From positions 146,028 to 210,027 of the forward strand of contig CAXXIN010000014.1 in the NCBI GenBank assembly GCA_963665275.2: DNA of 64,000 nucleotides, written 5' to 3'. Below, in pieces: positions 1-3,693 of this stretch (the stretch's first letter is position 1; every line of letters starts with the position of its first letter). The DNA comes from Negativicutes bacterium (lineage in GTDB: Bacteria; Bacillota; Negativicutes; UBA1444). Position numbers and translations under genes: made by a program. The notes under the pieces are model-generated. The model saw nothing but the letters and a program-made list of their open reading frames with translations. It was not told where the DNA came from and made no database searches.

Positions 1-555
1 CGGAGTGGAAAACTCCGCCAGCATCTGGCGGGAAGAGGCTCCGAACAGATCAGAAAATAGGGACTCATATTCCGGAAACACTTGATCCAAGAGGGCGATT
101 ACCTTGCGTTTGAGATCGGATATATTATCTACCAGTGAGAAACGATAGCGGCAAAGTTGACGCAACGCAATTAAATCGGGTTCGGCCAGGGTGGTTTGCG
201 TAAACCGACCGAAGCGAATGACCTCAGCGATGAGAAAGGAATCGACTGCATCCGTTTTAGTCTGGCGAATGTACAGATTGCGAAGGCTGTCGGACTGAAT
301 GGGATTGATCACATGGACGACATGGCCATCCTGTATCAGCCGGGAATAAAGGGGCAGCCAGTAATGACCGGTTGCTTCCATGCCGAACACAACAGGCAGC
401 AAAGTGGGATTGAGTTTTTGAACCTGCTTGAACAAAAGCTCAACTCCGGCGAGAGAATTGGGGAACGAAAATGGTTTTCCCAGCAAACCGCCTGATTCAT
501 TCATCAGACAGGCCTCATGACTGCGCTTGGCGATGTCGATGCCGACGATGATCAT
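1..555 (-). CDS. IS110-family DEDD recombinase/transposase, N-terminal part (runs off the window's left edge)
   Basis: Not in the ORF track. Manual translation from ATG at 555 (RBS AAGGGAGG): MIIVGIDIAKRSHEA...FGMEATGHYW...VINP...RQTKTDAVDSFLIA...LRQLCRYR. GIDIAK, MEATG and KTDxxD are IS110 RuvC-like motifs. Confidence 0.95.
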   Translation of the reverse strand, partial: MIIVGIDIAKRSHEACLMNESGGLLGKPFSFPNSLAGVELLFKQVQKLNPTLLPVVFGMEATGHYWLPLYSRLIQDGHVVHVINPIQSDSLRNLYIRQTKTDAVDSFLIAEVIRFGRFTQTTLAEPDLIALRQLCRYRFSLVDNISDLKRKVIALLDQVFPEYESLFSDLFGASSRQMLAEFSTP

Positions 556-574
556 GTGCGCACCTCCCTTTGGG

Positions 575-805
575 ACAGATAACCTCCAGCAGCTGCGGCA
601 CACAACCTCGTGAGACATGCGAAGTACCAGTCGTACCGGCCAACATCCAGCTCATTCGTGATGGACCGCAGGGCCAGAGGGATCACTCTCAATTTCGAGG
701 TTCAACCTCAAGGAGGAAGACGATCTCCTCTGTCCTCTGCTATTAGTATCTCCGATTGTTCCTCGGGAGACAAGCGGAGAGGTTCAACAGGTTTCCCTGT
801 TTATC
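575..805 (-). ncRNA. Putative IS110 bridge RNA
   Basis: Lies between the end-proximal -10 box and the recombinase. Hairpin GAGGTT-C-AACCTC (697-709) is flanked by a 9-mer (711-719, AGGAGGAAG) identical to the host flank (823-831). Boundaries approximate. Confidence 0.7.
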
Positions 806-837
806 CCGAACATAATTATACGAGGAGGAAGCTCATC

Positions 838-2385
838 ATGTTAACAGAGTATCGCAACGAACCGTTTACGAATTTCTCCATTCCCGAAAACAAGGCTGCC
901 ATGGAAGCGGCGCTGTCCTTGGTAGCGTCGCAGAAGGGCAGACATTATCCCCTGAAAATCGGTGGCGTTGCCATCGATACGGAAGCGAAGATCACTTCGG
1001 TCAATCCCTCTTATATCGAGGAAGTGGTCGGCACCGTGGCCCGCGCCAACATTGAGTTGGCGGACAAAGCTGTAAAAGCGGCCGCCGACGCCTTTAAAAC
1101 GTGGAAATTCATTGAGCCGGAAACCCGCGCTCGACTGATTTTCAAAGCGGCTGCCATTCTGCGCCGCCGCAAGTTCGAGTACTCCGCCTGGTTGGTGGAG
1201 GAAGCCGGCAAGAACTGGGCCGAAGCGGACGCCGATACGGCGGAAGCCATCGACTTCATGGAATATTATGGCCGCGAAATGCTGCGTTATGCCGCAGGGA
1301 TGACTGTGACATCCTACCCCGGAGAGCAGAATGAATGCGTCTATATTCCGTTGGGCGTGGGCGTGGTCATTCCGCCCTGGAACTTCCCTCTGGCAATCCT
1401 GGCAGGGATGACCGCGGCGGCTGTGGTTGCAGGCAACACCGTCATCATGAAGCCGGCCAGCAGCACACCGGTTATTGCGGCCAAACTGATGGAGCTGTTT
1501 GAAGAGGCCGGTGTTCCTGCCGGCGTTATCAACTATCTGCCTGGCAGTGGCGGCAGCATCGGCGACGCGCTGGTGTCCCATCCCCAGGTACGGTTTATCA
1601 ACTTCACCGGTTCCAGGGATGTCGGCCTGCGGATCAATAAATTGGCTGCAGACGTAGTGCCGGGACAGATCTGGATCAAACGGGTGATCGCTGAAATGGG
1701 CGGCAAGGATGCGATCATCGTGGATGATGAGGCTGATCTCGAAGAAGCGGCGACCGGCATTGTAACGTCGGCCTTCGGTTTCCAGGGGCAGAAGTGCTCG
1801 GCCTGCTCGCGCGCGATTGTCGTAAAAAGCGTTTACGATGAACTGGTAGCGAAAGTTGTGGCCAAAACAAAAGCGCTGAAAGTCGGACCGGCAGCCGAAT
1901 TTGGCGTAAACATGGGTCCGGTGGTGGATGAAAGCGCTTACAAGAAAGTGCTGGATTATATTGAAATCGGCAAAGGCGAAGCCCGTCTGGTCGCAGGCGG
2001 CAACAAAGCGGGCGACAAGGGCTGGTTCATCGAACCGACGGTATTCGCTGACGCGCCTGCCACTTCCCGCATCGCACAGGAAGAAATCTTCGGGCCGTTC
2101 GTAGCCATCATTCCGGCTGCTGATTTTTCCGAAGCTCTCGACATCGCCAATGGCACCGAATATGGTCTGACCGGCGCCGTATTTTCCAAGAACCGTGCCA
2201 AGTTGGAGCGGGCACGCCGCGAATTCCACGTCGGCAATCTTTATCTTAACCGCAAATGCACAGGGGCATTGGTCGGCGTGCAGCCCTTTGGCGGCTTCAA
2301 CATGTCAGGCACCGACTCCAAAGCTGGTGGCGCCGACTATATGCTGCTTTTCATGCAGGCCAAATCGGTTGCGGAAAAACTCTAA
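838..2385 (+). CDS. pruA: L-glutamate gamma-semialdehyde (P5C) dehydrogenase, RocA/PruA type, 515 aa
   Basis: ALDH motifs [42 protein letters not shown]. Start moved to ATG 838 after AGGAGG (823-828). Confidence 0.93.
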
Positions 2386-2527
2386 GATTGCATTTGAATT
2401 ACCTGTCTTGGATGACGATAATAAAGAAGGGGCTGTCTCAATAAGAATTTGATATGCTCCCTTCAAGGTAGACAGATGAAATAAAAAAACATTGGTATGC
2501 CACCCATTAAGTAGACAAGGGAAATAG

Positions 2528-3439
2528 TTAAATTGAACAGTAATGCATTTCAAACTGCCTTGGGGACTTGTATCCCAAGGCAGAATGTCTTCTCTGCCTA
2601 TTGTAGAATATTTCTATATACTCAAACACTGCCTTCTTGGCGATTTCTCGATTAGCGAACATTCCCATCCCTCGCATTAACTCGGTTTTTAATGTCTTAT
2701 GGAAAGCCTCAGCAACAGCATTATCATAAGGATTTCCGGGCCTGCTCATGCTGGCGATTAAGCCATGTTTGCTGAGCAAGTCCTTATATTTTTTGCCCAT
2801 GAATTGCGATCCCCGATCCGTATGGACCACCAGGCCAGGCATTGGACTTTCTGCCCAGACTGCCGCTTGAATTGCGGTGAGTGCCAATTGTTCTCTCATT
2901 TGTTTATCCATGGACCATCCTATAACTTTTCGGGTGTAAACATCCAAATACACCATCAGGTAAAGAAATCCTTCTCTAGTTTTTATATATGTAATATCTC
3001 CAACCCAAATTTTATTCTTATCCTCTGCCCTAAAGTATTGCCCAAGGATGTTTTCACTAGCAAGGGCCCCTGTGCTTTTCCGGTAAACCCCATGCTTCTT
3101 TCTCGGATATTCTGCAGTGAAGCCCAATTCTCTCATACGTAGAACAATCCGTTTATGATTTACCTTCCGTCCGCGCGATTCTAGCTCCGCCTTAATCCTT
3201 CGATAACCATAACGTTTCTTGTACTGAAAATAGATTTCCGTGATTTCCTCGTTGAGTACTTCGTTCTCTATGGCGCGCCGACTTTTCCTTGCATGAATGA
3301 ATTTGTAGTAGCCAGCGCGAGAGACTTTCAGCACGCTGCACATGAGTTTTGTGCTAAAGTGCTTTGAGTGTTGCTTAATGAACTCGAATTTCTTGTGTTT
3401 GAATGTGTTTATGCCTTGAGGAAGGCTTGAAACTTTTTT
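2528..3439 (-). CDS. IS3 transposase OrfB (DDE), reached by -1 frameshift
   Basis: WVGDITYI, HTDRGSQF, GNPYDNAVAEAF motifs. The frame is open upstream of the tracked ATG (3343) as far as an A6G slippery site at 3433-3439. Confidence 0.93.
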   Translation of the reverse strand, partial: KKVSSLPQGINTFKHKKFEFIKQHSKHFSTKLMCSVLKVSRAGYYKFIHARKSRRAIENEVLNEEITEIYFQYKKRYGYRRIKAELESRGRKVNHKRIVLRMRELGFTAEYPRKKHGVYRKSTGALASENILGQYFRAEDKNKIWVGDITYIKTREGFLYLMVYLDVYTRKVIGWSMDKQMREQLALTAIQAAVWAESPMPGLVVHTDRGSQFMGKKYKDLLSKHGLIASMSRPGNPYDNAVAEAFHKTLKTELMRGMGMFANREIAKKAVFEYIEIFYNRQRRHSALGYKSPRQFEMHYCSI

Positions 3440-3693
3440 AGGATATCGCGTTCCTGCTCCAATTGTTCAATTCTTTTTTGAAGTGTGCGAATTTCGAACT
3501 CTGGATCTCTGATAGGATTGCCAGAGCCAGTGAAGGCCTGTTCGCCAGACGTTTCGTATTCCTTGACCCAACGAGCAACCATGTTTCGTGATAGTTCTAG
3601 AGCGCTTGCAACTGACGCAGAACTTTTGCCTTCCTCAAGTACTTGTTTTACAACTTGAACTTTAAATTCCCGGTTAAATTTCTTTCGAGACAT
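3409..3693 (-). CDS. IS3 transposase OrfA (HTH)
   Basis: MSRKKFNREFKVQVV...LEQERDILKK pattern; overlaps orfB at the A6G site. Confidence 0.93.
   Translation of the reverse strand: MSRKKFNREFKVQVVKQVLEEGKSSASVASALELSRNMVARWVKEYETSGEQAFTGSGNPIRDPEFEIRTLQKRIEQLEQERDILKKFQAFLKA

What the first reader, a model, noticed from the sequence alone, without database searches (positions are those of the whole stretch)
575..840. IS110 bridge-RNA guide appears to match a Shine-Dalgarno sequence
Seen: the element's non-coding left end contains AGGAGGAAG (711-719) beside a small hairpin (697-709). The same 9-mer (823-831) is the host sequence at the element end and is the RBS of pruA (ATG 838). On the recombinase strand the loop reads CTTCCTCCT-[hairpin]-GAAATTGAGAG. 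Established: IS110 bridge RNAs (IS621 paradigm) have a target-binding loop whose two guides flank a hairpin and pair around a 2-nt core, which is CT in IS621. Inference: the target is about 5'-AAATTG[AG]GAGGAAG-3', a generic Firmicute RBS context, so the element would home to gene starts and regenerate AGGAGG after insertion. ACGAGG further along the RNA (minus strand of 606-611) is complementary to the core plus element end and may be a donor guide.
Basis: partly seen in the sequence, partly recalled or inferred. Interest (0 to 1): 0.8.

Follow-up and report, generated by a model that had tools for sequence, protein, structure and literature searches.

The report
Bridge-RNA insertion sequence homing to ribosome-binding sites
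A small mobile element of the IS110 family carries a guide RNA whose target loop reads the ribosome-binding site of host genes, which explains why all three copies in this genome sit just in front of a gene start; the mechanism is a known one and only the target is unusual.

Summary
Window 1-822 (minus strand) is the left part of a 1,483-bp IS110-family element, flanked on both sides by a CT core. It has three near-identical copies in the genome.

Its 5' non-coding end encodes a two-loop bridge RNA (window 572-740). The first loop carries CTTCCTC-CT and AAATTG-AG on either side of a hairpin.

All three copies lie at sites with 1-2 mismatches to the 14-nt target these guides specify. Each sits directly 5' of a Shine-Dalgarno sequence plus start codon, antisense to the gene. 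A related strain has the empty site.

Across about 100 homologous elements:
- Left guide and left flank covary: 5.29 of 7 positions against 3.86 permuted.
- Right guide and right flank covary.
- Both donor guides track the element ends: 106 of 110 and 82 of 93.
- 102 of 130 distinct guide sets are Shine-Dalgarno-complementary.

The mechanism follows the IS621 paradigm. Targeting of translation signals is known for IS900 and IS901. I file it as a new member of a known kind. RNA expression and the circular form were not observed.

The parts
1..822 (-). Left-end-proximal 822 nt of an IS110-family insertion sequence. The element proper is 1,483 bp (1,485 with one core copy). The rest, including the right end, lies upstream of the window start, at G000:C14 from about 145364.
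   Evidence: Three copies at 99.9-100% identity. Length from first LE base to core T is 1,485 in all three. A contig of run X6 skips exactly 1,485 nt.
1..555 (-). First 185 codons of the 393-aa transposase/recombinase. It starts at 555 and runs off the window.
   Evidence: PF01548 plus PF02371. NF033542 'IS110 family RNA-guided transposase', 249.8 bits against a cut-off of 140. IS621 transposase 8wt6 at E=1.1e-24. D7, E60, D102, D105, S312 and G313 are invariant in A1.
572..740 (-). Bridge RNA core: target-binding loop followed by donor-binding loop.
   Evidence: The only hit of covariance model R1 in the window, 126.5 bits (the window's sequence was in the seed). The structure is supported by 21 of 21 pairs with compensatory change.
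722..731 (-). 5' arms of the two helices closing the target-binding loop (731-728 and 725-722).
711..719 (-). Left target guide CTTCCTC plus core-binding CT. It is identical to the top strand of left target plus core.
   Evidence: 9/9, 8/9 and 7/9 identity to the left flanks of the three copies. Family covariation.
697..709 (-). Cap hairpin of the target-binding loop.
   Evidence: helix 3.
688..695 (-). Right target guide AAATTG plus core-binding AG. It is complementary to core plus right target.
   Evidence: 0-2 mismatches of 6 to the right flanks of the three copies. Family covariation.
676..684 (-). 3' arms of the helices closing the target-binding loop (684-681 and 679-676).
647..652 (-). 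Left donor guide hexamer AGCTGG. It is identical to right-end positions -9 to -4 from the crossover.
   Evidence: Guide hexamer equals right-end hexamer in 106 of 110 homologues, with four covarying variants.
606..611 (-). Right donor guide ACGAG (611-607) plus G606. The guide is complementary to core plus the first 3 bases of the left end. G606 could pair with the last target base after strand exchange (handshake-like; inferred).
   Evidence: 82 of 93 homologues, several variants. Handshake concept from PMC11208158 passages.
593..603 (-). 3' arms of the helices closing the donor-binding loop. They pair with 658-660 and 666-671.
   Evidence: Helices 4 and 5.
815..820 (-). TATAAT -10 box, 2 nt inside the left end. 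With TTGACT in the right end it would give a 17-nt-spaced promoter if the ends are joined at the core.
   Evidence: Sequence. The same arrangement recurs in homologues. The junction itself was not observed.
823..824 (.). Core dinucleotide: AG on the plus strand, CT on the transposase strand. It is present at both junctions.
825..831 (+). Left target: the rest of the Shine-Dalgarno sequence and the start of the spacer of pruA (host DNA).
   Evidence: Present in the empty site of run X6 and in relatives.
838..2385 (+). pruA (L-glutamate gamma-semialdehyde dehydrogenase), the gene whose ribosome-binding site was targeted.

Best explanation
This is an active or recently active insertion sequence of the IS110 group. 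It is 1,483 bp long, has no inverted repeats, and is flanked by a CT core on each side. It uses a bridge RNA encoded in its 267-nt left end to choose its insertion site.

The first internal loop of the RNA is the target-binding loop:
- On its 5' side it carries CUUCCUC-CU, identical to the top strand of left target plus core, so it pairs with the bottom strand.
- On its 3' side it carries AAAUUG-AG, complementary to core plus right target.

The second, conserved loop is the donor-binding loop. It carries AGCUGG, which matches the right end, and ACGAG, which is complementary to core plus the first left-end bases.

By analogy with IS621, the DEDD/Ser recombinase exchanges strands just 3' of the CT core. 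On the strand of the host gene the specified site has three parts: an A/T-rich stretch, then AG, then GAGGAAG. The element therefore lands at the 5' edge of a Shine-Dalgarno sequence. It is always antisense to the gene, and the core repeat leaves AGGAGG and the start codon intact on the gene side.

Shown here: complementarity, site occupancy, an empty site, family-wide covariation of all four guides, a conserved RNA structure and conserved catalytic residues.

Inferred: transcription of the RNA, a circular intermediate with a junction promoter, and the chemistry.
For: Element and copies:
- Three copies at 99.9-100% identity, with CT at both junctions.
- Across the 14 guide-specified positions, the occupied sites have 1, 2 and 2 mismatches.
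- The rest of the genome holds 0 perfect sites, 1 one-mismatch site and 36 two-mismatch sites.

Empty site:
- One contig of run X6 joins L001 297 to 1783 and skips 1,485 nt, with 3 ambiguous letters.
- In 4 relatives whose loci matched my pattern (of 8 loci examined), the upstream gene, a short spacer, the Shine-Dalgarno sequence and pruA are contiguous.

RNA structure:
- RNAalifold on a plain MAFFT alignment of 45 homologues predicts the target-loop helices; 11 of 12 pairs have compensatory change.
- On the model-fitted alignment of 95 distinct rows, 95.6% of cells pair against 71.1% shuffled and 40-49% slid, and 21 of 21 pairs show compensatory change.

Guide covariation:
- Left guide against left flank: 5.29 of 7 against 3.86 +/- 0.09 permuted, reached by 0 of 2,000 permutations (n=99). 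With one row per distinct guide (n=76) it is still 5.21 against 3.79.
- Right guide against right flank, first 4 bases: 2.97 against 1.32, reached by 0 of 3,000 permutations (n=97).
- Donor guides: 106 of 110 and 82 of 93.

Protein:
- PF01548 plus PF02371 and NF033542.
- Aligns to the IS621 transposase, with S312-G313 opposite its catalytic S241-G242.
- The catalytic residues are invariant in 23 homologues.
Against: - No RNA data. No listed sequencing run is RNA, so expression and the RNA ends are unknown.
- No circular junction was seen. The junction promoter is inferred from two hexamers and their spacing.
- The left donor guide hexamer is followed by AU where the donor has T plus CT. Pairing of that guide with the core, as described for IS621, is therefore not evident.
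- The closest relative with DNA on hand (L087, 71% protein identity) matches its left flank at only 3 of 7 positions, although its right flank matches 6 of 6.
- Homologous insertions are not fully independent, so the permutation figures overstate significance.
- 56 of 156 rows were dropped from the left-flank test because no left boundary could be called or it lay too close to the locus edge.
- No Rfam family matches the RNA.
Confidence: 0.9

Rival explanations
1. The match is chance. Shine-Dalgarno-like purine runs are common in this genome, so an internal AGGAGGAAG and a flanking one need not be related.
For: CCTCCT occurs 1,461 times in the genome. 6 of 100 shuffles of the window give two or more copies of the 9-mer somewhere.
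Against: The variable positions of the loop track the flank across homologues beyond every permutation. The second half of the loop predicted the far flank, which lies outside the window. The loop sits in a conserved, covarying RNA structure.
Confidence: 0.02
2. The internal AGGAGGAAG is a ribosome-binding site for a gene on the antisense strand of the element, comparable to the host-expression-dependent hed ORF described for IS900.
For: A plus-strand frame is open from 610 through the left end and continues in frame into pruA. IS900 is reported to carry an antisense ORF that depends on host signals (passages of PMC8141618).
Against: No ATG, GTG or TTG follows 711-716 at ribosome-binding distance. 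The 9-mer varies among homologues in step with the flank, not as a ribosome-binding site would. It lies in an internal loop of a conserved RNA on the other strand.
Confidence: 0.03
3. Target choice is made mainly by the protein recognising Shine-Dalgarno DNA or local structure, and the RNA is dispensable or only auxiliary.
For: A 2026 preprint abstract (10.64898/2026.03.19.712850, seen in the listing only) reports a further sequence-structure layer of target recognition for ISPpu10. Positions 3-6 of the left target are nearly invariant in the family, so they carry little covariation signal.
Against: Positions 7-9 of the left target and 1-5 of the right target vary and covary with the loops. 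The family paradigm shows RNA-programmed targeting experimentally (PMC11208160 passages).
Confidence: 0.05

Closest known systems
IS621 of Escherichia coli (IS110 family; bridge RNA paradigm; Durrant et al. 2024 PMC11208160 and Hiraizumi et al. 2024 PMC11208158, passages read)
   Same: - The recombinase has a DEDD RuvC-like domain plus a Tnp domain with a catalytic Ser-Gly.
- The non-coding RNA lies 5' of the gene.
- The variable target loop comes first and the conserved donor loop second.
- The 9-nt left target guide is identical to the top strand and includes the core.
- The right guide is complementary to core plus right target.
- The core is CT, with 7 nt of left target.
- The -35 box lies in the right end and the -10 box in the left end.
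   Different: - The proteins are distant: phmmer E=1e-24, and the N-terminal domain scores only 23 bits.
- The right target guide reads about 5 bases beyond the core, against 2 in IS621.
- About 82 nt of left end precede the modelled RNA.
- Pairing of the left donor guide with the core is not evident.
- The target is a Shine-Dalgarno region, not a REP element.
IS900 and IS901 of Mycobacterium avium (IS110 family)
   Same: They insert in one orientation at translation initiation signals. Plague 2010 (PMC2942039, passage) cites Doran 1997 and Inglis 2003 for insertion between the Shine-Dalgarno sequence and the start codon. PMC8141618 (passage) gives the motif CATGNNNNNNTCTCCTT. As here, the start codon lies as CAT to the left on the transposase strand.
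   Different: - The IS900 crossover falls between the ribosome-binding site and the start codon, which separates them. Here it falls at the 5' edge of the Shine-Dalgarno sequence and leaves both with the gene.
- The hosts are Actinobacteria.
- No bridge-RNA explanation of IS900 targeting stood in the passages I read, and I did not test IS900 itself.
CazIS110-1 of Caloranaerobacter azorensis (bioRxiv 10.1101/2025.10.25.684509, passages read)
   Same: An IS110 element of a member of the Clostridia, with a bridge RNA, shown active in excision and integration.
   Different: Its relationship to this clade was not tested. The text has 0 occurrences of Shine-Dalgarno, ribosome binding or RBS.
IS1111-type elements with seekRNA (Siddiquee et al. 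2024, PMC11187229, passages read)
   Same: DEDD transposase, and an RNA with short matches to both strands of the target.
   Different: In IS1111 elements the non-coding region lies downstream of the gene, the guide order is reversed and there are subterminal inverted repeats. Here the region lies upstream and the order is that of the IS110 type.

Membership tests
IS110 family, IS110 group (bridge recombinase elements) | Recombinase with an N-terminal DEDD RuvC-like domain (PF01548) and a C-terminal Tnp domain (PF02371) | tested here: met
   PF01548 at 6.8e-45 and PF02371 at 4e-27. NF033542 at 249.8 bits against a cut-off of 140.
IS110 family, IS110 group (bridge recombinase elements) | Catalytic D, E, D, D and Ser(-Gly) residues present | tested here: met
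   D7, E60, D102, D105, S312 and G313 are invariant in 23 homologues. S312-G313 align with IS621 chain S243-G244, which is S241-G242 in the paper's numbering once the chain's 2-residue offset is allowed for.
IS110 family, IS110 group (bridge recombinase elements) | No terminal inverted repeats; a short core repeated at both junctions; simple insertion | tested here: met
   CT at both junctions of 3 copies. The right end ends in GGTCT in 110 homologous rows. The empty site differs by exactly 1,485 nt. Inverted repeats were not searched for with the repeat finder; the two ends as read differ.
IS110 family, IS110 group (bridge recombinase elements) | Long non-coding end upstream of the recombinase gene, encoding a structured RNA with two internal loops | tested here: met
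   The left end is 267 nt. Helices are supported by covariation. The model hit lies at 572-740.
IS110 family, IS110 group (bridge recombinase elements) | First loop pairs with both halves of the target, the second with both ends of the element, and each pairing includes the core | tested here: met
   LTG, RTG and RDG include the core and covary with their DNA. The LDG hexamer covaries (106 of 110), but its pairing with the core is not evident, so that one detail is inconclusive.
IS110 family, IS110 group (bridge recombinase elements) | Circular intermediate whose right-left junction forms a promoter for the RNA | tested here: inconclusive
   TTGACT in the right end and TATAAT in the left end would be 17 nt apart once joined at the core. 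No junction-spanning contig was reported, and contigs cannot show absence.
IS110 family, IS110 group (bridge recombinase elements) | The RNA is expressed and bound by the recombinase | not testable with these tools
   No RNA run is listed for this sequence.
IS1111 group (seekRNA downstream, subterminal inverted repeats) | Non-coding region and guide RNA downstream of the transposase gene | tested here: not met
   Only about 40 nt follow the stop codon. The RNA lies upstream.
Rfam RNA families | Match to a curated covariance model | tested here: not met
   In window 1-3000 at E up to 10 there were three weak matches, none in 572-740 and none near its gathering score.

The most novel reading that the evidence does not exclude
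Homing to the Shine-Dalgarno sequence is not a quirk of this one element. It is a trait of a large clade of IS110 elements, mostly from Bacillota. Their target loops combine two parts. A nearly fixed part reads the Shine-Dalgarno core and so resembles the 3' tail of 16S rRNA. A freely evolving 'private' part reads the spacer and the upstream bases. This makes gene starts a safe landing place, because the crossover regenerates the ribosome-binding site and no ORF is broken, and it forces an antisense orientation that shields the transposase from host read-through. The same logic would give the RNA-level explanation of the older finding that IS900 and IS901 target translation initiation signals.
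Probability: 0.55. Interest if true: 0.6.

Novelty: new member of a known kind. Interest (0 to 1): 0.48.

Why it matters
- It shows from sequence alone that a natural bridge RNA can be read. The two guide halves in the window correctly predicted DNA that lies outside it.
- It shows that one of the most common functional motifs in bacterial genomes, the ribosome-binding site, is a natural bridge-RNA target.
- For genome annotation, it explains why these elements pile up directly in front of genes and inside operons. Here the sites are between a nifH-like gene and its P-II gene, and between an upstream gene and pruA. Polar effects on the downstream genes are possible there.
- For bridge-recombinase engineering, the clade offers natural guides with a longer right target guide, and over a hundred guide-target pairs for learning pairing rules.
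- It makes the older IS900/IS901 observation testable at the RNA level.

Tried and rejected
- Rfam scan of window 1-3000 at E up to 10: no family on the RNA.
- Copies in the 12 other genomes of the taxonomic family: none at E up to 1e-60 with this protein, so they could not supply copy comparisons.
- RNA evidence: no RNA holder listed.
- Read laying on four DNA-contig runs gave the empty site in X6 but reported no contig across a right-left junction. Contigs cannot show absence.
- Outward promoter from the left end towards the host gene: none on the plus strand of 500-900.
- Promoter-like and terminator-like sites over the whole element were not above the shuffled expectation: 2 against 1.5, and 4 against 2.7. 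Nothing can therefore be said about read-through to pruA.
- RNAalifold on the plain alignment did not find the donor-loop helices. I placed them by hand from pair counts, and they then held on the model-fitted alignment, which leans towards the given structure.
- My pattern for the pruA start matched only 4 of 8 relatives' loci. The other 4 were not examined further.
- Supplementary data of Durrant et al., which list natural target motifs, could not be seen. They may already list Shine-Dalgarno-like targets.
- Literature searches for IS110 with Shine-Dalgarno and bridge RNA found only an unrelated use of the term. Searches found no report linking bridge-RNA guides to ribosome-binding sites.

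Full report
**1. What is there**

The minus strand of window 1-555 encodes the start of a 393-aa protein that runs off the window.
- It has the two IS110 domains, PF01548 and PF02371.
- It passes NCBIfam NF033542, 'IS110 family RNA-guided transposase', at 249.8 bits against a cut-off of 140.
- It aligns to the IS621 transposase at E=1.1e-24.
- The residues corresponding to the IS621 catalytic D11, E60, D102, D105 and S241-G242 are D7, E60, D102, D105 and S312-G313. All are invariant in an alignment of 23 homologues.

The window's genome holds three copies of the element, on contigs C14 (this one), C18 and C7, at 99.9-100% identity.

**2. Boundaries**

On the transposase strand all three copies begin CGTATAAT and end GCTGGT-CT. 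The right end ...AGCTGGTCT is conserved in homologues and is followed by unrelated sequence. That places the core at CT.

One contig of a different sample (run X6, about 4% diverged) runs from L001 297 straight to 1783 and skips 1,485 nt. Three letters fit on either side. That equals the element of 1,483 bp plus one core copy.

In four relatives of the same genus whose loci matched my pattern (4 of 8 loci examined), the upstream gene, a short spacer, the Shine-Dalgarno sequence and pruA are contiguous.

In window coordinates the element ends at 822, the core is 823-824, and 825-831 is host DNA.

**3. The observation**

AGGAGGAAG occurs at 711-719 and 823-831 and nowhere else in the window.

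**4. The RNA**

I collected 160 loci encoding homologous recombinases (46-71% identity).
- A plain MAFFT alignment of 45 upstream regions gave an RNAalifold consensus with the helices that close and cap the first loop. 11 of 12 pairs show compensatory change.
- I added the helices that close the second loop by hand from pair counts and built a covariance model of 160 positions and 21 pairs.
- The model matched 98 and 61 places in two batches, making 158 distinct rows because L003 was included in both. It gave one hit in the window, at 572-740 on the minus strand.
- On the first batch (95 distinct rows) 95.6% of cells pair, against 71.1% when shuffled and 40-49% when slid. All 21 pairs have compensatory changes. 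That alignment is fitted to the structure, so the plain-alignment result is the more independent one.

The layout matches the published consensus: a variable first internal loop and a conserved second one (PMC11208160 passage).

**5. Guides against DNA in this genome**

According to Durrant et al. (passages):
[quoted passage not shown] - The core is included in each pairing.

The loop therefore specifies left target CTTCCTC, core CT and right target CAATT(T).

| Copy | Left guide identity (of 9) | Right-target mismatches (of 6) |
|---|---|---|
| C14 | 9 | 1 |
| C18 | 8 | 2 |
| C7 | 7 | 0 |

Counted over 14 positions, the three sites have 1, 2 and 2 mismatches. The rest of the genome has no perfect site, one site with 1 mismatch and 36 with 2 mismatches. 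The three copies therefore occupy some of the roughly 40 best sites in 4 Mb.

**6. Guides against DNA across the family**

Left boundaries were called from a CT-NN-TATAAT-like pattern that had to agree with the donor guide, so the call is independent of the target guide. That gave 100 of 156 rows and 99 unique guide-flank pairs.

- **Left target.** Identity over the 7 positions is 5.29, against 3.86 +/- 0.09 when flanks are permuted; 0 of 2,000 permutations reach it. With one row per distinct guide (n=76) it is 5.21 against 3.79. The signal spans positions 3-9 from the crossover and is gone by position 10.
- **Right target.** There are 97 unique pairs. The match rates at the first five flank bases are:

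| Position | 1 | 2 | 3 | 4 | 5 |
|---|---|---|---|---|---|
| Observed (%) | 92 | 88 | 65 | 53 | 51 |
| Permuted (%) | 43 | 33 | 27 | 30 | 27 |

  Position 6 is at background. The right guide therefore reads about 5 bases beyond the core, more than the 2 of IS621. This agrees with the paper's remark that some orthologues have longer right guides.
- **Donor loop.** The hexamer in the 5' side equals right-end positions -9 to -4 in 106 of 110 rows, in four covarying variants. The complement of the 3'-side pentamer equals core plus the first 3 left-end bases in 82 of 93 rows, in several variants. The final G would pair with the last left-target base in the integrated junction, as the handshake guides of IS621 do. 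That last point is inference.

Homologous insertions are not fully independent, so the permutation counts should be read as strong but not exact.

**7. Ribosome-binding sites**

In this genome all three copies lie between the stop codon of an upstream co-directional gene and the Shine-Dalgarno sequence of the next gene. The transposase is antisense to both genes. The downstream genes are:
- pruA.
- A P-II gene (PF00543), which lies behind a nifH-like gene.
- A 28-codon ORF with two CxxC pairs.

Across the family:
- 102 of 130 distinct guide sets have a Shine-Dalgarno-complementary left guide, and 38 of them end in CCTCCT.
- The left-flank consensus is CCTC-CT.
- 48 of 82 flanks long enough to judge have a start codon 5-21 nt from the crossover that opens 60 or more codons.
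- The same test gives 21% at random positions and 52% at all CCTCCT sites of this genome.

The element therefore homes to Shine-Dalgarno-like DNA, and gene starts follow from that. Because the core forms the first two bases of AGGAGG, the motif is regenerated next to the gene.

**8. What is not shown**

- No RNA run is listed.
- No circle junction was seen.
- The promoter TTGACT-17-TATAAT across the joined ends is inferred from sequence.
- The left donor guide shows no obvious pairing with the core.
- The closest relative with DNA (L087) matches its right flank at 6 of 6 positions but its left flank at only 3 of 7.

**9. Comparison and novelty**

The mechanism is the IS621 paradigm. Targeting of translation signals by IS110-family elements has been known for IS900 and IS901 since 1997 and 2003 (passage in PMC2942039; motif in PMC8141618). 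There, however, the crossover falls between the ribosome-binding site and the start codon.

- The main texts of Durrant et al., Siddiquee et al. and the CazIS110 preprint do not mention ribosome-binding sites as targets.
- Full-text searches found no paper that links bridge-RNA guides to Shine-Dalgarno sequences.
- Supplementary tables were closed and may hold such motifs.

I rate this a new member of a known kind. The clade-wide pattern is the part worth following up.

Noticed in passing
window 815-844 (minus strand): At this copy the host flank supplies TTAACA, which overlaps the first codons of pruA, 18 nt upstream of the element's TATAAT. This is an 11-of-12 match to a sigma-70 promoter. 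It could drive the bridge RNA and transposase from the integrated copy.
   Followed up: partly
G000:C18 about 78250-79765 (L002): The second copy sits inside a nitrogen-fixation gene cluster, between the stop codon of a nifH-like gene and the ribosome-binding site of a P-II regulator gene. A polar effect on the downstream nif genes is possible.
   Followed up: partly
G000:C7 about 311100-311190 (L003): The third copy precedes a 28-codon ORF with two CxxC pairs (zinc-ribbon-like), followed by a 152-codon ORF in another frame. Whether the small ORF is a real gene was not tested.
   Followed up: no
window 2528-3343 and 3409-3693 (minus strand): A second, unrelated insertion sequence lies just downstream of pruA. 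Its orfB has rve integrase-core domains plus HTH_21, and its orfA has HTH_Tnp_1. The layout is IS3-like; the family name is recalled, the domains are.
   Followed up: partly
L039, L040, L041, L053 (loci): In one subclade the right target guide ends AAGGAG, so the Shine-Dalgarno complement straddles the core. The first bases of the left end (CC) repeat the first bases of the right target, so the motif would still be rebuilt next to the gene.
   Followed up: no
30 nt upstream of the model hit in the homologues: 110 of 125 distinct upstream segments carry a -10-like hexamer (GATAAT in 54, TATAAT in 28) just before the bridge RNA. This suggests an internal promoter in integrated copies. No control was run. 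The window's own copy has none of the eight hexamers searched in the comparable stretch, read by eye.
   Followed up: partly
L013, L017, L093, L103, L116; G000 16S rRNA genes: 5 of 119 distinct left target guides end in the same 9 nt as the 3' tail of this genome's 16S rRNA (TCACCTCCT). The window's guide shares CCTCCT with that tail. Such guides would also match the 3' end of 16S rRNA genes as DNA.
   Followed up: partly
L015 2810 and 4706; L010 2577-2697; L146 169-317: One metagenome-assembled genome has two copies 1.9 kb apart at different ribosome-binding-like sites. Two loci show a second, weaker bridge-RNA-like hit upstream of the main one.
   Followed up: no
window 610-2385 (plus strand): The pruA reading frame stays open upstream through the element's left end, giving a GTG-started 591-codon ORF. 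This is probably coincidental.
   Followed up: no
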